Shown: positions 3,886 through 10,821 of the stretch, piece by piece
Numbering within the stretch: the first letter of the stretch is position 1
Layout: the number at the start of each line of letters is the position of its first letter
NCBI GenBank assembly: GCA_035513335.1
Contig: DATKCE010000053.1
Span: forward strand, 25,793-89,792
DNA length: 64,000 bases
Direction of reading: 5' to 3'
DNA from: Acidimicrobiia bacterium
Lineage (GTDB): Bacteria > Actinomycetota > Acidimicrobiia > Spongiisociales > ZC4RG35
Notes under the pieces: generated by a model
What the model saw: the letters and a program-made list of their open reading frames with translations, nothing else
Told to the model about the DNA's origin: nothing
Databases searched by the model: none
Program-made: the position numbers and the translations under genes

Positions 3886-5132
3886 AGCTGACCCGAGTTG
3901 GCGGCCTCGACGTCGCCGAGATAGGCCGGGTCCTGGTAGCGGCTGAGGCGGAAGGCGGGGGCGTATTCGGGGAGATCGGCCCCCACCAGATGGCGCGCCA
4001 GCAGGTCGGCGGCTCCGGCCGAGACCATCACCCCGAATCCCGACATGCCGGTGAGGAGGTGCACACCGGGAACATGGGTCGGCCCGATGAGCGGCCGGTT
4101 CTCCTCGGTCTTGGTGTAGTAGCCACCGTCGACGAACGACTCCGGAAGACGATCGAGATAGGCCCCCAGCCCGGGGACCATAGTGGTCAGGCCGCGCATC
4201 ACCACCTCCGGGTAGAGGGGATCCTGGGGGAGCGGCCAGGTCGGCTCGACGACCTCACCGTGATACTCCCAGAGGGCCAGCAGATAAGGAGACCCGGCCC
4301 CACCCTCCGGACGGAAGTGACAGAAGACGGGCATCTCCCCGAGGACCTCGTGACGACCCATCGACTCCAGCTCGGCCCGCTCCTCGTCAGACCAGTCCAG
4401 GGTCTGGGTGTCGCTCCAGATCGTCATCGGGGCGTCGCGAGGCACCACTCCGAGATGATCCTTGAACGCCACCTTGAGGTGGAGCTCCGAAAACAGGGGG
4501 AGGTCGACGCCGGCCAACGCGGCCACCTCGGCGGAGAGTGGTCCGGCGGCGATCACGACCTTGGGCGCATCGATCCGGGATCCGTCCGACAAGCCGACAC
4601 TCCCGTCGTCGATGGATGTCACCTCTGCCCGGATCAGCCTGGCTCCGGCGCCCCGGGCGCCCTCCAACATCCATTGTCCGAGATCCTGGGCCCGAAACCA
4701 TCCGGCCCGCTCCACCCTCACCCCGCCCACGGCATCGGCGGTCAGATATCCGTATCGCCGGCGGAGATCGGCGGCGTCGAGAACCTCGGCCCTCGCCCCG
4801 AGGCCCGTGACCTTGTCGACTTGCGCCGCCATCTCGGCGAGGGTCGCCGCCTCCCCGGTGGCGAAGAGATAGCCGTTCTGGTTGAAGCCGAAATCGGTTT
4901 CCCCGGCCAGCTCCTCGAATATGTCGATCGAACGGTTCATCAGCCCCACCATCGGCCGGTTGGGCCACCAGTTGCGATAGCACTCCGTCGACTTGTCCGA
5001 GGTGAGGGTGAGCGGTGGCCTGGGATCGACCAAGACGACATCTTCGACGCCGTGACGCACCGCGAGGTGGTAGGCCGCCGACACCCCCGCGATCCCGGCG
5101 CCGACGATGACGATGTCGGCGGTCGAGTTCAT
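3882..5132 (-). CDS. FAD-dependent oxidoreductase (DAO family)
   Basis: N-terminal dinucleotide-binding motif [17 protein letters not shown]. 416 aa. ATGA overlap with tkt. Confidence 0.85.
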
Positions 5133-7060
5133 CGGTCGAGGAACGTCGTCACCTTCCCGGCGATCGCCTCCGGTGTGAAACCGAATTGCTCCGCCATCAC
5201 CTCGGCGGGTGCCGAAGCTCCGAAGCGGTCGATGCCGATACTGAGGCCGTCCGGTCCCACGATCCGCTCCCAGCCGAAGATCGAGGCCGCTTCGATCGAT
5301 ACCCGGGGCAGTGAGCCGAGGACCTGGTCGCGATAGTCCTCGGGCTGCTCGTGGAACAGCTCCCAGGAGGGAAGGCTGACCACGCGCGCCGAGATTCCCT
5401 CTGCTTCGAGCAGGTCGGCGGCTCCCAGAGACGCCGACACTTCGGATCCGGTGGCGATCAGCGTCACGTCGGCTCCCTCGCGGACCACATATCCCCCACG
5501 GGGGAGGTCACCCGTGGGGAGGGTGGGGACGTCCTGGCGGGTGAGGATCAGAGCCACCGGGCCGTCGGTGCGGTTGAGGGCGACTTCCCACGCCTGGACG
5601 GCCTCGTTGGCGTCGGCGGGTCGGATCACCCACAGGTGGGGCATGGCCCGCATGGAGGCGAGGTGCTCGATGGGCTGGTGTGTCGGCCCGTCCTCGCCCA
5701 AGAAGATGGAGTCGTGGGTCCACACCCAGATGGAAGGGGCCTCCATGAGCGCGGAGAGCCGCACCGCCGGACGCATGTAGTCGGAGAAGACGAAGAAGGT
5801 TGCCCCGTAAGGGCGGAGGCCCCCGTGGACCGCCATCCCGTTGACCGCGGTGCCCATGCCGTGCTCGCGGACACCGAAGGGGATGTCACGTGCCGTCGGG
5901 TCGTCCGTGGAGAAGAGGCGACCGGAGTCGATCACCGTCTTGGTGGAGCCGGCCAGATCGGCGGACCCGCCGATGAACCCCGGGACCTTGTCGGCGATCT
6001 CGGCGATCACCTTGCCCGCGGAGGCGCGAGTCGCCATCTCCTCGCCCTCTTCGAAACCCGGCCCGTCGAGGCGGATTGGAGCGGTCGAGTGGAGAGCGTC
6101 CCACTCGGAGGTGTCGGCGGCTTCGAATCGCTCCTGCCACTCCTTGTATGCGGTTCGCCCCCGCTGCATCGCCCGGTCGAAGAACTCGTAGACGGCGTCG
6201 TCGATGTGGAAGGCGGGCTCCACGGGATATCCCATGCCCTCCTTGGTCATCCGGATCTCGTCGTCTCCCAGGGGAGAACCGTGGGCCTCGGCGGTGTCTT
6301 GCTTGTTGGGGGCACCGCGGGCGATATTGGTGTGGCAGACGATGAGTGACGGCCGCTCCTCTTCCGCCAGGGCTTCTTCGATCGCTCCGGCGATGGCGGG
6401 CCGGTCGTGCCCGTCGATGACCAGGCTGTGCCAGCCGTAGGCGTCGAAACGCTTGGCCACGTCCTCACTGAACGTGATGTCGGTAGAGCCGTCGATCGAG
6501 ATGTCGTTGTCGTCGTAGAGATAGATGAGTCGCCCGAGACCGAAATGGCCGGCGAGCGACGCCGACTCCGAGCTGACCCCCTCCATGACGTCCCCGTCGG
6601 AGACGAACCCGTAGGTGTGATGATCGACCAGGTCGGCTCCCAGACGGGCGCGGAGATGTGCCTCCGCCATGGCCATCCCAACACCGGTGCCGAAGCCTTG
6701 TCCCAGCGGGCCGGTGGTGGTCTCGATCCCGATCGCTTGGTCGATCTCGGGATGCCCGGCGGTGTGAGACCCCCATTGCCGGAAGTTCTTCAGCTCGTCG
6801 AGGGAGAGGGGGAACCCGGACAGATGGAGCAGCGAGTAGAGGAGCATCGAGCCGTGCCCGTTGGAGACGACGAATCGGTCACGATCGGGCCATTCGGGGT
6901 GGTCGGGGTCGACCTCGAGGTAGTTGCCCCAGAGAGTGACCGCGATGTCCGCCATGCCCATCGGCATGCCCGGATGACCCGAGTTGGCCTTCTGGACCGC
7001 GTCCATGGACAGGGCCTTGATCGTGTTGACAGCGAGTTGCTCGAGAGACGTGTCTGGCAT
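5129..7060 (-). CDS. tkt: Transketolase
   Basis: N-terminus [27 protein letters not shown] and full-length transketolase-like sequence. Start trimmed to ATG 7060 (MPDTSLEQ..). Confidence 0.95.
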
Positions 7061-7107
7061 CCCGCCGGAGGGTACCCGAACTGGAGGACACTCCCCCGGC
7101 CCCCACC

Positions 7108-7146
7108 TGTGAGGACTTCCGCTGCTCATCGGAAGAAAACCTCACA
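7108..7146 (-). terminator. Stem-loop downstream of the sigma/Ogt operon (candidate intrinsic terminator)
   Basis: Nested inverted repeats TGTGAGG/CCTCACA and CTTCCG/CGGAAG, 15 nt after the stop at 7161. A T4 bulge is present on the minus strand. Confidence 0.45.
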
Positions 7147-7160
7147 AAGGGATGGTGGGC

Positions 7161-7916
7161 TCAGATGTGGGGGCGGCACTGCTTGCATGCCCGGAAACCC
7201 GCCTCCTCGGCGGCGGTCCCGGACGGGAAGTCGACCACGTTCGAATCCCTGGAGCGGCGAATGGCTGCGCAGGTGGGATGGCAGTACACCCCTGTGGACG
7301 AGTTCCCCCGCACCCGGACGCGACGTGCCGCCAGCCCCTCCAGCTCGCTGGGGCGGGCTCCCTCGTGCTCCAGCAGCTCGATCTTGTTGTGCGGCCCGCC
7401 CAAGGAGTAGTTGCCGATGTGCCCGTCGGTGCGCACCACACGGTGACAGGGGATGATGAGGGGGATCGGGTTCCTGGCCACTGCGGACCCGACGGCGCGC
7501 ACCGCCCGGGGGCTGGCGATCTCCCGAGCCACCCACCCATAGGGGCGCACCTCGCCTTTGGGGATGGTGGCGGTGGTGCGCAGCACCCTCTCCTGGAACG
7601 AGGTGACCGTACGCAGGTCGACTGGCAGTTCGCCAGGGCTGCCCCGCTCGATCGCCTCCGGGATGTGCCGGGCCCAGGCCGAAGGCGCCTCCGCCCTGAT
7701 CAGGGGTCGACCGAGATGCGGCTGATGACGCTCCGCGAACCCATCGGCGATGTCGAGGGACGAGACCCCCCCGGGGTTGAAGGTGACCACCACCTCGCCG
7801 ATTGGCGAGTCGTAGAAGTCGTATCCCTCGGCGAGACCGGTTCCGAGGGCGACGCCCTCGCTGATCCCGGGAGGGAGATGGCCGGTCAGCTGTTCGAGCT
7901 GCTTTTCGATGCTCAT
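7161..7916 (-). CDS. Methylated-DNA--protein-cysteine methyltransferase (Ogt-like) with a C-terminal Ada-type Cys4 zinc module
   Basis: Active-site IIPCHRVV. C-terminal CHPTC-x27-CKQC matches Ada N-domain ligand spacing (CxxxC..CxxC). ATGA overlap with the ECF sigma gene. Confidence 0.85.
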   Translation of the reverse strand: MSIEKQLEQLTGHLPPGISEGVALGTGLAEGYDFYDSPIGEVVVTFNPGGVSSLDIADGFAERHQPHLGRPLIRAEAPSAWARHIPEAIERGSPGELPVDLRTVTSFQERVLRTTATIPKGEVRPYGWVAREIASPRAVRAVGSAVARNPIPLIIPCHRVVRTDGHIGNYSLGGPHNKIELLEHEGARPSELEGLAARRVRVRGNSSTGVYCHPTCAAIRRSRDSNVVDFPSGTAAEEAGFRACKQCRPHI

Positions 7917-8431
7917 AGTTCTTCCTCGATCGTGTGACGGAGCTTTGCCAGGCCGCGGTGGACATCGGCTTTCACGGTCCCCTCCGGTCTACCGGTGATC
8001 TCTGCGATCTCGCCGATCCCCATCCCCACGACATGACGCAGGACCACCGCCGTCCGCTGATGGCCATTCAAGACCGACATCCTTCGGTCCCAGGCTGCAT
8101 CGTCGACGGGCTCCGGGTCCTCGGCCCCGGTCTCGGTCATCGCCACATAGGTGGGACGTCGGGAGCGGGAGCGCAGATGGTTCCGACCCAGGTTGATGGC
8201 GATGGTCCACAGCCACGGCTGGAGGTCCATGTCCACGATTCGCTGGGACTCGTAGCCGGCCAGTGCCCGATAGGCCCTGATGAAGGTCTCCTGGGTGAGG
8301 TCCTCTGCCTCCTGGTGGTCGCCGCAGATACGCCGCAGCCCCCAGAACAGCTTCCGACCCATTGCCTCGACGACCCGAGGGAACGTTGCGTCCAGATCGG
8401 CCGCGAGGGCATCGGTGAGATCATCCATCAC
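7913..8431 (-). CDS. ECF-type RNA polymerase sigma-70 family factor
   Basis: Region 2 (EDLTQETFIRAYRAL..PWLWTIAINLGRNHLR) and region 4 HTH (IGEIAEITGRPEGTVKADVHRGLAKLR). Confidence 0.9.
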   Translation of the reverse strand: MMDDLTDALAADLDATFPRVVEAMGRKLFWGLRRICGDHQEAEDLTQETFIRAYRALAGYESQRIVDMDLQPWLWTIAINLGRNHLRSRSRRPTYVAMTETGAEDPEPVDDAAWDRRMSVLNGHQRTAVVLRHVVGMGIGEIAEITGRPEGTVKADVHRGLAKLRHTIEEEL

Positions 8432-8488
8432 GTAGAAGAACCCCGCTCGAGGTCATCCGGTTGCACCCGCGGCACCGTACCTATATTG

Positions 8489-9166
8489 GTGAGAGTGTCG
8501 CCGCCAGCCATCGAGGAGAGCCTGAGCCGGGCCGAAGCCGCGGTGTCGGCCGGGGAGAGCCTGGCCGGCACCGGCTTCTGGCGGGCCGTGTCGGAGGTGA
8601 AGCGCCGGCCGGAGCTCGTGGACCGCTACGCCGACCGGATCGCCCGCATCGATGCTCAGGCCCACCGCAACTGGGCACTGCTGATCGTCCCATTGCGGCT
8701 GGGCACAGTGTTGGCGATCGTCGTCACCCTGATCGGCCTGGCCTCGATCTGGTGGGCATATCACCTCACCGGTTGGGCCCAGGTCCTCATCTTCCTCGCC
8801 GGGGTGGGGATCCTCCTCGGATCGACTCACACGCTGGCCCACCTGGTGGTCGGACGGCTGATGGGGATCAGGTTCAGCTACTGGTTCGTCGGCGAGGTCA
8901 GCCGGCCCCAGCCCGGAGTGAAGACCGACTACTCCTCCTATCTGCGCACAGCGGCCAACAAACGCGCCTGGATGCACGCCTCCGGGGCGCTCGCCACCAA
9001 GACGATCCCCTTCCTCCTCATCGGAGCTGCGGTCGCCGCCGAGCTCCCGACATGGATCGTTTGGGCCCTCGCCGGGCTCGGTGTGGCGATGATCCTGACC
9101 GACGTGTTCTGGTCGACCAACGCTTCGGACTGGAAGAGGTTCAGGCGGGAGAGAGGCTACGTCTAG
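8489..9166 (+). CDS. Hypothetical integral membrane protein
   Basis: C-terminal two thirds of ORF 7934..9166 has about 5 TM segments. The upstream part is antisense to the sigma gene. Start set at in-frame GTG 8489 (TTG 8486 or GTG 8495 are possible). Confidence 0.55.
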   Translation: MRVSPPAIEESLSRAEAAVSAGESLAGTGFWRAVSEVKRRPELVDRYADRIARIDAQAHRNWALLIVPLRLGTVLAIVVTLIGLASIWWAYHLTGWAQVLIFLAGVGILLGSTHTLAHLVVGRLMGIRFSYWFVGEVSRPQPGVKTDYSSYLRTAANKRAWMHASGALATKTIPFLLIGAAVAAELPTWIVWALAGLGVAMILTDVFWSTNASDWKRFRRERGYV

Positions 9167-10821
9167 GAGTCTGGATCGGTCCTCGGGATCGAGCCGTCTG
9201 TCTGGTGGAGCCGGTCATGAGTGGCGACGAGACTCTCGAAGTCTGGCCGGTCCTCGACATCGATGGCGATCAGATGACGGGTGACCGGACCGTCCCCGCG
9301 GTCGAATGACCGAGCCCTCCTCAACAGGCCGGCTGCGGCGTCGTCGATCCTCCGATGTTGGGCGAGGTGATCCTCCCAGCTGCGCAGGATCATCACCTCG
9401 GTGAGGCGGGTCGGGTCGGAAGTGTTGCGAAACAGCCGCCAGCGGTAGGCGCCAGTGCTGAGACGGACCAGTCGAACCTCGTTCATCACGTCGGTGAACT
9501 CGGTGAAGTCGGACTCTTCGATCTGCCAGGTGTTGAGAACCATCACTGGCCCGCCGACGAACTCTTCTTGGTGGTGGGGAGAGTCGCCTGAGGAGATTTC
9601 GCTGAACTCGGGGGTGGCCACGTCATCGACGTGAGGCACCCTGAATCTGGGGGCCATCGAGCCCAGTGCCACCGCCCCGACGGAGAAGACGAGGAGTGAC
9701 CCGGGAGTGCCGACATAGTCCGCTACCAGCCCGGAAGCTATCGAGCCGATGGGCATGACCCCGGCGAACGCCAGGGTGTAGATGGACATCGCCCGGCCCC
9801 GAATCCAGGGGGGAGACATCAGCTGTGCGGTGGCGTTGAGGGTGGCCAGGGTCAGGAGCCAGAACAACCCCCCGAAGAACATCGCCACACCGGCTACCCA
9901 CACGCTGGGGGCGAGCCCCAGGAGGATCCCTGCGGCTCCGAACAGGCTGATGGTGTAGGGCACCCACGAGCCGTCGACCCAGGCGCTGATACGGGGTCGT
10001 ATCACCGCACCGGTCAGGGCACCCGCTCCCATGGCGCCGTAGAGGACACCGAAAGCCACCGCGCCGCCTCCGAGGTATGCGGTGTGCACCGGGAGCACCG
10101 CCTGAACCACCGCGGAGGTCACCGCGAAGATCGCCACCAGGACCGTGAGGTTGCGAAAGGCCGGGGTGAACCTGGCGAAGCGAATCCCGGTGGAGATCGC
10201 CGAGCGCATCGACTGGGGCCGCTCCCGTGCAGTGGCCACCAGTCGGGGCCCGATGATGGCGAGGGCGACGATGATCGCCAGGTAGGAGAGGGCGTTGAAG
10301 GCGAACCCGGCCTCGGCCCCGTAGATGGCCACCAGGGCGCCGCCGAAGGCGGGGCCGATGGCTCGGGCAGCATTGAAGGCGGCCGAGTTGAGTGCGACCG
10401 CCGACGCCACCAGGCCACGTGGAACGAGATCGGGAACCAGCGCCTGCCAGGCGGGGAGGTTGAGGGCCAGGCCGGTCCCGATGAGCAGGCCCAGCGTCAG
10501 GAGCAGACCAGGGGTCATCAGACCGAGGAACGTGAGTACGGCCATCACCGCGGCTGACGCGCCCATGACGGCTTGGGCGACCATCATGAGTTTCGCCCGG
10601 TCGAACCGATCGGCCAGAGCCCCAGCGCTCAGTGAGAAGAAGAGGAGGGGAAGGGTGGCCGATGCGACCATCAGGCCGACCCAGGTGCTCGACCCGGTCA
10701 GCTCGAGCATCAGCCAGGACCCAGCGACGGATTGGACGAAAGTGCCCGAGGCGGAGAACACGTTCCCGGCCCAGAGCCAACGGAAGTGAGGGTATTTGAG
10801 TGGCTCCACCGCCGAAGTCAT
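9163..10821 (-). CDS. MFS transporter (MFS_3/EntS-like) with a ~110-aa soluble C-terminal domain
   Basis: N-terminus YPHFRWLWAGNVFSASGTFVQSVAGSWLM and 12 TM-like segments, then a hydrophilic tail (VLNTWQIEESDF..SWEDHLAQHRR). Confidence 0.85.
   Translation of the reverse strand: MTSAVEPLKYPHFRWLWAGNVFSASGTFVQSVAGSWLMLELTGSSTWVGLMVASATLPLLFFSLSAGALADRFDRAKLMMVAQAVMGASAAVMAVLTFLGLMTPGLLLTLGLLIGTGLALNLPAWQALVPDLVPRGLVASAVALNSAAFNAARAIGPAFGGALVAIYGAEAGFAFNALSYLAIIVALAIIGPRLVATARERPQSMRSAISTGIRFARFTPAFRNLTVLVAIFAVTSAVVQAVLPVHTAYLGGGAVAFGVLYGAMGAGALTGAVIRPRISAWVDGSWVPYTISLFGAAGILLGLAPSVWVAGVAMFFGGLFWLLTLATLNATAQLMSPPWIRGRAMSIYTLAFAGVMPIGSIASGLVADYVGTPGSLLVFSVGAVALGSMAPRFRVPHVDDVATPEFSEISSGDSPHHQEEFVGGPVMVLNTWQIEESDFTEFTDVMNEVRLVRLSTGAYRWRLFRNTSDPTRLTEVMILRSWEDHLAQHRRIDDAAAGLLRRARSFDRGDGPVTRHLIAIDVEDRPDFESLVATHDRLHQTDGSIPRTDPDS

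What the first reader, a model, noticed from the sequence alone, without database searches (positions are those of the whole stretch)
7161..8431. ECF sigma factor translationally coupled to an Ogt protein with a C-terminal Ada-type zinc module, in the anti-sigma position
The ECF sigma gene (7913-8431) overlaps by ATGA a 251-aa protein. Residues ~1-190 of that protein form a complete O6-alkylguanine-DNA alkyltransferase with PCHRV. The last ~50 residues read GVYCHPTCAAIRRSRDSNVVDFPSGTAAEEAGFRACKQCRP. This is a CxxxC-x27-CxxC pattern whose spacing matches the Cys4 zinc site of the Ada N-terminal domain, the methylphosphotriester acceptor. Relative to E. coli Ada the domain order is reversed and the AraC-type HTH is missing. 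No recognisable anti-sigma gene (ZAS HxxxCxxC or a single-pass TM protein) follows the sigma gene. One hypothesis is that the Ogt/Ada-Zn protein acts as an alkylation-sensing partner or anti-sigma. Cys methylation would then switch sigma activity, giving a sigma-factor-based analogue of the adaptive response. I cannot tell from memory whether this pairing is already catalogued among actinobacterial ECF groups.
Basis: partly seen in the sequence, partly recalled or inferred. Interest (0 to 1): 0.68.

Follow-up and report, generated by a model that had tools for sequence, protein, structure and literature searches.

The report
ECF sigma paired with Ogt–Ada-zinc protein
A small sigma factor gene is fused end-to-end with a gene for a DNA-alkylation repair protein carrying an Ada-type zinc module; the pairing is real, widely conserved and already listed in the ECF sigma catalogue, but nobody has shown how it works.

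Summary
Window 7913-8431(-) is a minimal ECF sigma. It overlaps by ATGA a 251-aa protein with a canonical O6-alkylguanine alkyltransferase (PCHRV) and a C-terminal Ada-type Cys4 zinc module whose four Cys align with Ada C38/C42/C69/C72.

The pairing is not new. Casas-Pastor et al. 2021 list it as ECF203 (Ogt at +1 plus Ada_Zn_binding) and ECF122, both with no anti-sigma and unknown mechanism.

New findings here:
- The pair is adjacent in 76/76 informative loci from Acidimicrobiia and Chloroflexota, and in Rubrobacter, Nonomuraea, Streptomyces, Micromonospora and Microtetraspora.
- The genes overlap in 74/76 loci.
- A conserved ECF-type promoter, TGCAAC-N16-G(G/T)GTTC, sits directly before a probably leaderless sigma start.
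- In Micromonospora and Microtetraspora the same motif precedes a canonical ogt, an MFS transporter and an SDR/monooxygenase operon.
- A Streptomyces-type branch has lost the DNA base-flipping residues but keeps the Cys-His-Glu triad and all zinc Cys, and has a separate canonical Ogt beside it.
- Rare natural sigma–partner fusions exist.

Best reading (about 0.5): an alkylation-consumed regulator of the sigma. Binding to sigma was not tested.

The parts
8438..8465 (-). ECF-type promoter TGCAACCGGATGACCTCGAGCGGGGTTC: -35 TGCAAC at 8460-8465 and -10 GGGGTTC at 8438-8444. It ends 9 nt before ATG 8428 (6 nt before GTG 8431), so the transcript is probably leaderless.
   Evidence: It is the only match in the 64 kb window and the top PWM score at 33.3 bits; the next hit scores 14.6 and lies inside an ORF. 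The same motif with a fixed 16-nt spacer precedes the sigma gene in 65/73 loci by a strict pattern; the remaining 8 have close variants, apart from L024. It also occurs in Streptomyces, Nonomuraea, Micromonospora and Microtetraspora, and with a GAAAC -35 in Rubrobacter.
7913..8431 (-). ECF sigma factor gene (171-172 aa; the likely true start is ATG 8428), with sigma2 and sigma4 only and no extension.
   Evidence: Pfam Sigma70_r2 and Sigma70_r4_2. NCBIfam sigma70-ECF superfamily 59.4 bits against a 42.9 cut-off. It is 43% identical to the Streptomyces sigma that sits in an ECF203-type context.
7913..7916 (-). ATGA overlap: the sigma stop TGA and the partner start ATG share 4 nt, with GAGGA at 7923-7927 as a ribosome-binding site.
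   Evidence: Read directly from the sequence. The overlap is 4 nt in 68 loci, 11 nt in 5 and 1 nt in 1 of 76.
7161..7916 (-). Ogt-AdaZn partner gene (251 aa): N-terminal extension, two-domain alkyltransferase and C-terminal Ada-type zinc module.
   Evidence: The AlphaFold model has pLDDT 90.2 and pTM 0.85.
7830..7916 (-). Family-specific N-terminal extension (aa 1-29; helices 3-9 and 20-26). G27, Y32 and D33 just after it are invariant across both branches. It is a candidate sigma-contact surface (inference only).
   Evidence: Invariant columns in alignment A5 of 85 sequences. Model pLDDT here is 70-80. No Pfam match even at E<=10.
7356..7601 (-). Alkyltransferase C-domain (aa 106-187) with the helix-turn-helix. 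It carries the Arg finger R140, Asn hinge N149, the active site P156-C157-H158-R159-V160 (nt 7437-7451), Y170 and E185.
   Evidence: Pfam DNA_binding_1 at 104 bits. PCHR is present in 199/199 Acidimicrobiia/Chloroflexota homologues.
7170..7313 (-). Ada-type Cys4 zinc module (aa 202-249). C212 (nt 7281-7283) corresponds to Ada C38; C216, C244 and C247 correspond to Ada C42, C69 and C72.
   Evidence: Pfam Ada_Zn_binding. Alignment to 1ADN/1U8B. pLDDT is 96-98. Foldseek hit to 1U8B at E 1.7e-3.

Best explanation
This is a two-gene, self-amplifying alkylation-damage module of the ECF203 type.

Shown:
- A minimal ECF sigma and an Ogt-AdaZn protein are made from one probably leaderless transcript, with an overlapping stop and start.
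- The transcript is driven by a promoter of ECF architecture that is conserved wherever the pair occurs.

Inferred:
- The sigma reads its own promoter.
- The Ogt-AdaZn protein is both a suicide alkyl acceptor and the sigma's cognate regulator.
- Unalkylated, it holds the sigma inactive, in the manner of an anti-sigma.
- Irreversible transfer of an alkyl group from damaged DNA consumes the partner. The acceptor would be the PCHRV Cys157 and, where present, the Ada-type Cys212.
- Alkylation changes or destabilises the partner and frees the sigma.
- The freed sigma makes more sigma plus fresh partner, and in actinomycetes also a canonical Ogt, an MFS exporter and an SDR/monooxygenase.
- The circuit resets once unalkylated partner again exceeds sigma.
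For: 1. A sigma gene lies immediately upstream on the same strand in 76/76 loci that have upstream DNA, down to 44% partner identity, in Acidimicrobiia and about 30 Chloroflexota MAGs. The same holds in Rubrobacter, Nonomuraea, Streptomyces, Micromonospora and Microtetraspora.
2. The stop and start overlap in 74/76 loci.
3. The promoter TGCAAC-N16-G(G/T)GTTC is conserved directly before the sigma start across all these lineages. This implies positive autoregulation, which needs a co-expressed brake.
4. No other neighbour is universal. The divergent membrane protein occurs in only 28 close loci. TetR and SARP regulators were seen only in the annotated Streptomyces loci.
5. In 47 actinomycete partner clusters the Arg finger survives in only 4/47, and the Tyr114-like and Tyr158-like residues in 0/47. 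His, Arg and Glu of the catalytic network and all four zinc Cys are 47/47, and the PCHR Cys is 42/47. A separate canonical Ogt lies next to the pair there. So that partner is kept for something other than O6-alkylguanine repair.
6. The same promoter motif precedes the canonical ogt in Micromonospora, and it forms divergent pairs between the MFS and SDR/FAD-monooxygenase genes in Micromonospora and Microtetraspora.
7. Natural sigma-partner fusion ORFs occur in three Streptomyces strains.
8. There are precedents for Cys methylation as a transcriptional switch. One is Ada Cys38 (as summarised in PMC10957082). The other is Cada2, where methylation of the PCHR Cys267 of an Ogt-type domain turns the regulator on (PMC10957082).
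Against: - No sigma-partner interaction was predicted or measured. Co-folding was not possible with these tools.
- The partner shows no resemblance to known anti-sigma domains: there is no Pfam anti-sigma hit and no such fold match.
- A conserved +1 gene can be merely the sigma's target. To my knowledge this is the case in ECF41, from Wecke et al. 2012, recalled and not checked here.
- The fusion proteins have a degenerate sigma2 that Pfam does not detect, so they are weak Rosetta-stone evidence.
- The Ada-Cys38 equivalent is His in 22/199 homologues, so that site cannot be the universal sensor.
- The PCHR Cys is missing in 5/47 actinomycete clusters.
- No second promoter site was found in this 64 kb window. 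The regulon of this organism is therefore unknown.
Confidence: 0.5

Rival explanations
1. Effector only. The Ogt-AdaZn protein is simply the main product of the sigma's regulon, a repair enzyme with two acceptor sites. It does not touch the sigma. Sigma activity is set by something else, such as transcription from another promoter, a distant regulator like the TetR or SARP seen in Streptomyces, or proteolysis.
For: - The window protein keeps every residue expected of an active alkyltransferase.
- Casas-Pastor et al. proposed the TetR repressor, not the Ogt, as the regulator of ECF203.
- In ECF41 the conserved neighbour is, to my knowledge, a target rather than a regulator (recalled, not checked here).
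- Overlapping start and stop codons are common in high-GC operons.
- No anti-sigma-like fold was found.
Against: - TetR and SARP are absent outside the annotated Streptomyces loci, while the pair is universal.
- The sigma has no regulatory extension.
- The actinomycete branch has lost its base-flipping residues yet is retained beside a canonical Ogt, which is hard to explain for a pure repair enzyme.
- An autoregulated promoter without a co-expressed brake would run away.
Confidence: 0.25
2. Ada-like co-activator. Once methylated, the partner binds DNA or sigma region 4 and helps the ECF holoenzyme start transcription. The sigma would supply in trans the sequence-specific DNA binding that the AraC domain supplies in Ada.
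For: - Methylated Ada activates transcription after Cys38 methylation, and methylated Cada2 contacts RNA polymerase (PMC10957082).
- The Ada-Zn module is intact and confidently folded.
- A conserved GTAC(G/C)GT element lies 8-10 nt upstream of the -35 in many Acidimicrobiia and several Chloroflexota loci, where an activator could sit.
Against: - There is no helix-turn-helix other than the non-specific one of Ogt.
- The upstream element coincides with the likely -10 of the divergent gene in Acidimicrobiia and is absent from many loci.
- The His variants of the Cys38 position cannot use the Ada electrostatic switch.
- ECF sigmas rarely need activators.
Confidence: 0.15
3. Chance or annotation artefact. 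The two genes are unrelated neighbours and the C-terminal Cys pattern is fortuitous.
For: None found.
Against: - 76/76 conserved adjacency.
- Pfam scores well above the cut-offs.
- The four zinc Cys are invariant in the 79 genome loci and the 47 actinomycete clusters.
Confidence: 0.01

Closest known systems
ECF203 and ECF122 groups of the ECF sigma classification (Casas-Pastor et al. 2021, NAR 49:986; supplementary text of bioRxiv 10.1101/2019.12.11.873521)
   Same: - Both are ECF sigmas without a recognisable anti-sigma and with an O6-methylguanine methyltransferase gene at +1.
- For ECF203 the context also holds an Ada_Zn_binding domain (1.22 per ECF) and an MFS transporter (0.78 per ECF).
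- The window sigma is 43% identical to a Streptomyces sigma whose context (TetR, HTH regulator, Ogt-AdaZn, second Ogt) fits the ECF203 description.
   Different: - The catalogue gives Actinobacteria 100%; here the pair also occurs in about 30 Chloroflexota MAGs.
- The catalogue reports no conserved promoter for ECF203, and CTCAC-Xn-CGTCTAC for ECF122. Here a strongly conserved TGCAAC-N16-G(G/T)GTTC is found.
- There is no TetR near the window pair.
- The catalogue proposed TetR, not the Ogt protein, as the regulator.
E. coli Ada (adaptive response regulator)
   Same: It has the same two methyl-acceptor modules: the Cys4 zinc site, whose ligands align one to one, and a PCHRV alkyltransferase domain, with 1SFE the best structural match. 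It is also autoregulated and consumed by its own reaction.
   Different: - The domain order is reversed, with Ogt first and the zinc module last.
- The AraC-type HTH is absent.
- The first 17 positions of the Pfam zinc-domain profile are not matched.
- Transcriptional output would go through a dedicated ECF sigma rather than through DNA binding by the protein itself.
Caulobacter Cada2 (Kamat et al. 2024, PMC10957082)
   Same: It is a regulator in which methylation of the PCHR Cys of an Ogt-type domain is the on-switch. This shows that the alkyltransferase site itself can be the sensor.
   Different: Cada2 carries its own DNA-binding domains, lacks the Ada zinc module and has no partner sigma.
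Zinc-containing anti-sigma factors such as RsrA/RshA (ZAS family)
   Same: These are cytoplasmic, co-transcribed partners of an autoregulated ECF sigma that are inactivated by chemical modification of zinc-bound Cys (own knowledge).
   Different: The partner here has no HxxxCxxC motif, no anti-sigma domain fold and no Pfam anti-sigma hit. Modification here would be irreversible alkyl transfer from DNA rather than reversible oxidation.
B. subtilis AdaA/AdaB and M. tuberculosis AdaA-AlkA/Ogt operons (own knowledge, not checked here)
   Same: In both, the Ada functions are split or re-shuffled among adjacent genes.
   Different: Those systems keep an AraC-type regulator. None uses an ECF sigma or an Ogt-then-zinc fusion.

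Membership tests
ECF (group 4) sigma-70 factors | Only sigma2 and sigma4 domains, about 170-200 aa | tested here: met
   Pfam Sigma70_r2 and Sigma70_r4_2, 172 aa. NCBIfam TIGR02937 scores 59.4 against a 42.9 cut-off.
ECF203 (Casas-Pastor 2021) | O6-methylguanine methyltransferase gene at position +1 | tested here: met
   The partner gene overlaps the sigma stop by 4 nt.
ECF203 (Casas-Pastor 2021) | Ada_Zn_binding domain in the genetic context | tested here: met
   PF02805 at 50.6 bits in the +1 protein.
ECF203 (Casas-Pastor 2021) | [quoted passage not shown] | tested here: not met
   There is no TetR or HTH gene among the 14 called genes of the syntenic locus L081 or among the flanking window genes scanned. 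Both are present in Streptomyces L087.
ECF203 (Casas-Pastor 2021) | MFS transporter nearby (0.78 per ECF) | tested here: met
   MFS_3 at 9163-10821(-).
ECF203 (Casas-Pastor 2021) | Score above the group HMM threshold | not testable with these tools
   The group HMMs are not available. The nearest proxy is 43% identity and a shared promoter motif with a Streptomyces sigma in an ECF203-type context.
ECF122 (Casas-Pastor 2021) | Predicted promoter CTCAC-Xn-CGTCTAC | tested here: not met
   The conserved promoter is TGCAAC-N16-G(G/T)GTTC.
ECF122 (Casas-Pastor 2021) | Conserved Cys in sigma2 | tested here: not met
   The window has C36, but that column is Cys in only 23 of 73 sigma sequences.
O6-alkylguanine-DNA alkyltransferase (Ogt/AGT, PF01035) | PCHRV active site with the His-Glu network, Arg finger, Asn hinge and two-domain fold | tested here: met
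   P156-C157-H158-R159-V160, R140, N149, Y170 and E185 are present. The profile aligns to 1SFE over aa 25-187, and Foldseek gives TM 0.76-0.77. Catalytic activity was not measured.
Ada N-terminal methylphosphotriester-repair zinc domain (PF02805) | Four Cys zinc ligands in register with Ada C38/C42/C69/C72 | tested here: met
   Alignment to 1ADN. The Pfam score is above the gathering cut-off. Foldseek hit to 1U8B.
Ada N-terminal methylphosphotriester-repair zinc domain (PF02805) | Nucleophilic Cys38 equivalent conserved, and methyl acceptance from DNA phosphotriesters | tested here: inconclusive
   The window has Cys212. Across homologues the position is Cys in 177 and His in 22 of 199, and Cys in 47/47 actinomycete clusters. 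Acceptor activity cannot be tested here.
E. coli-type Ada transcription factor | AraC-type helix-turn-helix between the zinc and Ogt domains | tested here: not met
   There is no HTH_18 or HTH_AraC hit. Canonical Ada relatives do show them.
Class I anti-sigma domain / ZAS | Helical anti-sigma domain, HxxxCxxC in ZAS | tested here: not met
   No Pfam anti-sigma family at E<=1, none for aa 1-104 at E<=10, and no such fold among the PDB matches.
Anti-sigma factor in the functional sense | Binds and inhibits its cognate sigma | not testable with these tools
   No multimer prediction is on offer. The block alignment needed to model the natural fusion could not be produced.

The most novel reading that the evidence does not exclude
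The Ogt-AdaZn protein is a new class of sigma regulator, a 'suicide anti-sigma'. This would be an adaptive response built on an ECF sigma instead of an Ada-type transcription factor, and it is shared by Actinomycetota and Chloroflexota.
Probability: 0.45. Interest if true: 0.8.

Novelty: new member of a known kind. Interest (0 to 1): 0.55.

Why it matters
[quoted passage not shown] If the partner works as proposed, DNA alkylation would be sensed by the repair protein itself and passed on through a sigma factor. That is a sensing principle not described for anti-sigma factors. It would also be a third solution to the bacterial adaptive response, after Ada and Cada2.

The comparative data gathered here turn a catalogue entry into a directly testable hypothesis in culturable Streptomyces or Micromonospora. 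They provide a defined promoter, likely regulon members, two candidate sensor cysteines, and natural variants that lack one or the other.

For this window alone, the pair is an ordinary member of that group.

Tried and rejected
1. Modelling the natural Streptomyces fusion as a stand-in for the complex. MAFFT aligned the sigma-only rows onto the Ogt part whenever Ogt-only rows were present, so no block alignment could be built.
2. The first AlphaFold run, with 14 close homologues, was unusable (pLDDT 54.8). A deeper alignment fixed it.
3. The divergent 223-aa membrane protein (8495-9166) as the real anti-sigma. Rejected because it is conserved in only 28 close Acidimicrobiia loci and has no significant family match. 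An earlier scan of this gene used coordinates two bases out of frame. My first tblastn with it used a wrong frame and was redone.
4. The conserved sigma2 cysteine, an ECF122 hallmark, as a possible acceptor. It is not conserved.
5. Looking for regulon members in the window. Only the sigma's own promoter matches, and the next-best site lies inside an ORF.
6. Looking for more sigma fusions among long relatives. They are canonical Ada proteins, a kinase fusion or unrelated proteins.
7. Organism names for the short relatives that lack the zinc module. The cluster look-up gave none, so the link to ECF122 partners stays untested.
8. Literature searches for an experimental study of this pairing found none.
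9. A regular expression briefly suggested 'PAHR' active-site variants. These were false matches upstream of an intact PCHRV.
Full report
**The observation**

The sigma ends ...GAA GAA CTA TGA and the next gene starts at the ATG that shares its A with that stop. The two genes therefore overlap by ATGA at 7913-7916, with GAGGA a few bases upstream.

Pfam finds Sigma70_r2 and Sigma70_r4_2 in the first protein. In the second it finds DNA_binding_1 (aa 106-187, 104 bits) and Ada_Zn_binding (aa 202-249, 50.6 bits against a cut-off of 23, profile positions 18-64 of 65). NCBIfam agrees.

A direct alignment of the C-terminal 53 residues to E. coli N-Ada puts C212, C216, C244 and C247 on Ada C38, C42, C69 and C72. 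A family profile aligns aa 25-187 to Ada-C (1SFE) and aa 204-250 to N-Ada.

With a deeper alignment, AlphaFold gives one compact body with pLDDT 90.2 and pTM 0.85. From N to C it comprises:
- two short N-terminal helices (aa 3-9 and 20-26, pLDDT 70-80);
- the two-domain alkyltransferase;
- a linking helix (aa 189-197);
- the zinc module (pLDDT 96-98).

Foldseek returns Ada-C and M. tuberculosis OGT at TM 0.76-0.77, and the methylated N-Ada/DNA complex 1U8B over 65 columns. It returns nothing resembling an anti-sigma domain. The organism is an Acidimicrobiia-type actinobacterium, judged from the names attached to close homologues and loci.

**Conservation of the pairing**

A scan of one genome per species returned 80 loci encoding a full-length relative of the partner. 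In all 76 loci that contain upstream DNA, a homologue of the window sigma lies immediately upstream on the same strand. This holds down to 44% partner identity and about 37% sigma identity.

About 30 of these loci come from Chloroflexota MAGs, including complete chromosomes. The rest are mostly labelled Acidimicrobiia.

The stop-start arrangement across the 76 loci is as follows:

| Arrangement | Loci |
|---|---|
| 4-nt overlap | 68 |
| 11-nt overlap | 5 |
| 1-nt overlap | 1 |
| 1-nt gap | 1 |
| broken sigma hit | 1 |

A tblastn of the plasmid collection added Rubrobacter radiotolerans, Nonomuraea gerenzanensis and four Streptomyces records. All have a sigma gene overlapping the partner gene, except one where the two are a single ORF. 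Chromosomal loci of Streptomyces sp. SH5 and Microtetraspora show the same overlapping arrangement. Micromonospora sagamiensis has the same gene order, but a 59-nt gap as called.

Nothing else is universal. The MFS_3, dienelactone hydrolase, transketolase and DAO genes, and the divergent 223-aa membrane protein, are confined to the closest Acidimicrobiia. Chloroflexota have other neighbours.

**Is it already catalogued?**

Yes. The supplementary group descriptions of Casas-Pastor et al. 2021 cover it in two groups.
- ECF122: Actinobacteria, no anti-sigma, a 6-O-methylguanine DNA methyltransferase at +1, and predicted promoter CTCAC-Xn-CGTCTAC.
- ECF203: Actinobacteria, 104 members, an O6-methylguanine methyltransferase at +1 (1.44 per ECF), Ada_Zn_binding (1.22 per ECF), TetR, an HTH protein and an MFS transporter. 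No conserved promoter is reported. The authors suggest the TetR as regulator, because no anti-sigma was seen.

A 2022 review lists ECF122 under 'unknown mechanism'. I found no experimental study.

The Streptomyces loci fit the ECF203 description: a TetR or SARP regulator, the sigma, an 'Ada metal-binding domain-containing protein', then a second canonical Ogt. Their sigma is 43% identical to the window sigma. I therefore file the window pair as an ECF203-type member. The group HMMs could not be run, and the TetR is absent here.

**The promoter**

Aligning the DNA upstream of the sigma genes reveals TGCAAC, exactly 16 nt, then G(G/T)GTT(C). Six to eight bases later comes a conserved (G/A)TG ATG GA start.
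- A strict pattern finds it in 65 of 73 loci, with spacer 16 in 64. All but one (L024) of the remaining 8 have close variants.
- In the window it is at 8438-8465(-) and is the only match in 64 kb. Shuffled sequence gives about 0.05 matches.
- Within the 80 loci, 65 of the 74 matches are these sigma promoters.
- The motif is also present before the Streptomyces, Nonomuraea, Micromonospora and Microtetraspora sigmas, and with a GAAAC -35 before the Rubrobacter sigma.

Three things follow. The operon is very probably autoregulated. Its mRNA is probably leaderless. The true sigma start is probably ATG 8428. The motif differs from the ECF122 motif, and it fills the 'not conserved' entry for ECF203.

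**Regulon hints**

In Micromonospora sagamiensis a second copy of the motif points at a divergently transcribed canonical ogt and ends 35 nt before its start. In both Micromonospora and Microtetraspora, a back-to-back pair of high-scoring motifs (21-30 bits) lies between an MFS transporter gene and an SDR gene. In Micromonospora the SDR gene is followed by an FAD aromatic-ring hydroxylase gene; Microtetraspora has only a C-terminal fragment of it. In Streptomyces the canonical ogt follows the pair in the same operon.

So in actinomycetes the sigma appears to drive its own operon, a genuine Ogt, an exporter and a small oxidoreductase set. In the window itself no further site exists, and the regulon of this organism is unknown.

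**What the partner's sequence says**

In the Acidimicrobiia/Chloroflexota set, every catalytic and DNA-lesion-binding residue of an alkyltransferase is kept. PCHR is present in 199 of 199 sequences. The Ada-Cys38 equivalent is Cys in 177 and His in 22. Two His variants I looked up are still overlapped by the sigma gene, in the same synteny.

The actinomycete branch (47 clusters) shows the reverse pattern:

| Feature | Kept in |
|---|---|
| Arg finger | 4/47 |
| Tyr114-like residue | 0/47 |
| Tyr158-like residue | 0/47 |
| His, Arg and Glu of the catalytic network | 47/47 |
| Asn hinge | 46/47 |
| PCHR Cys | 42/47 |
| All four zinc Cys | 47/47 |

In that branch the Pfam score of the Ogt domain also falls from about 104 to about 40 bits.

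A protein that has lost what it needs to flip and bind O6-alkylguanine, yet is retained beside a canonical Ogt and always overlapped by the sigma gene, is most simply a sensor or regulator. Across both branches a few residues of the family-specific N-terminal region (G27, Y32, D33) are invariant. This marks a candidate surface for a family-specific function. That is an inference only.

**Fusions**

In Streptomyces sp. NBC_00212 the sigma and the partner form one 448-aa ORF followed by a canonical ogt. The database holds two further clusters of this fusion, from S. sp. WM6378 and S. violascens, at 88-96% identity. The fusion has therefore persisted through some divergence, which argues for a physical link. 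However, Pfam no longer recognises its sigma2 region, so I give it little weight. No other fusions turned up.

**Mechanism**

Shown:
- co-transcription geometry, overlapping translation signals, and a conserved promoter of ECF architecture at the sigma start;
- an intact alkyltransferase and an intact Ada-type zinc site in the window protein;
- family-wide retention of at least one acceptor Cys in nearly all members.

Inferred:
- the sigma reads that promoter;
- the partner binds the sigma;
- alkylation relieves the inhibition.

The model I favour (about 0.5) is an alkylation-consumed anti-sigma. Because the alkyl transfer is irreversible, each repair event removes one brake molecule. The freed sigma then replaces both itself and the brake. 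The circuit thus keeps a pool of unspent repair protein and, in actinomycetes, switches on further genes.

Both possible sensor sites have precedents: Ada Cys38, and the PCHR Cys267 of Cada2 (PMC10957082). The His variants argue that the PCHR site, not the Ada-type site, is the common denominator in the window's clade. The actinomycete branch may lean on the zinc site instead.

The rivals are an effector-only role (about 0.25) and an Ada-like co-activator role (about 0.15). Neither is excluded, because no interaction could be computed or measured here.

**Verdict**

This is a real feature, correctly described, and a member of a catalogued but mechanistically unexplored kind. It remains unproven, and its emphasis on the Ada-type Cys needs revising.

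Five results appear to be new relative to the catalogue:
- the extension to Chloroflexota;
- the conserved promoter;
- the regulon hints;
- the two complementary branches of the partner;
- the fusions.

Noticed in passing
window 8428-8431 and 8438-8465 (-): The -10 element ends 9 nt before ATG 8428 (6 nt before GTG 8431), and relatives share ATGGA(T/C)GA at that spot rather than the GTG at 8431. The mRNA is probably leaderless, and the annotated-style GTG start is probably one codon too early.
   Followed up: partly
window 8473-8487 (-); also L046, L049, L075, L079, L080 about 8-10 nt upstream of the -35: A conserved element, A(T/C)NTA(A/G)GTACGGTG (AATATAGGTACGGTG in the window), sits just upstream of the -35 in many Acidimicrobiia. 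A similar GGTACCGT occupies the same place in several Chloroflexota. It may be the -10 of the divergent gene, an operator or an activator site. It is unexplained.
   Followed up: partly
window 8495-9166 (+): A divergently transcribed 223-aa membrane protein has a helical N-terminal region of about 60 aa and several transmembrane segments. It has no significant Pfam or NCBIfam family. It is conserved in this position in only 28 close Acidimicrobiia loci.
   Followed up: yes
window 5129-7129 (-) and 7130-7160; L085 4846-5520: Transketolase starts 31 nt after the partner's stop, with no terminator-like hairpin between them. In Rubrobacter the gene after the pair is ribulose-phosphate 3-epimerase. 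Two pentose-phosphate genes thus follow the pair in distant lineages. This may be coincidence.
   Followed up: no
L087, L089, L090 (Streptomyces): The Streptomyces modules sit beside a SARP regulator. In L087 and L089 they also sit beside methyl-cycle genes (metK in L089, metF in both, metH in L087), and PfkB-type kinases occur in L089 and L090. This may reflect high SAM flux or a biosynthetic cluster for a methylating compound.
   Followed up: no
L088 3356-4702; P0241, P0242: A natural single-ORF fusion of the ECF sigma and the Ogt-AdaZn partner occurs in three Streptomyces strains. Its sigma2 region is degenerate.
   Followed up: yes
P0243-P0287 (actinomycete partners), column of window G168-S171: The GNYS lesion-binding loop is replaced by a conserved C-D-A-A (Cys in 41/47 clusters). 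This adds a new conserved cysteine near the active site.
   Followed up: no
window protein aa 202-243 (nt 7188-7313): There is a weak NCBIfam hit (E 0.12, 12.5 bits against a cut-off of 27) of the zinc module to the 42-residue 'sunset domain' model NF051437. It may be a related small zinc module.
   Followed up: no
representatives, e.g. P0338, P0360, P0404: Proteins of about 195 aa share the family's N-terminal extension and Ogt domains but lack the zinc module. They could be the partners of ECF122-type sigmas. Neither their organisms nor their gene contexts could be retrieved.
   Followed up: partly
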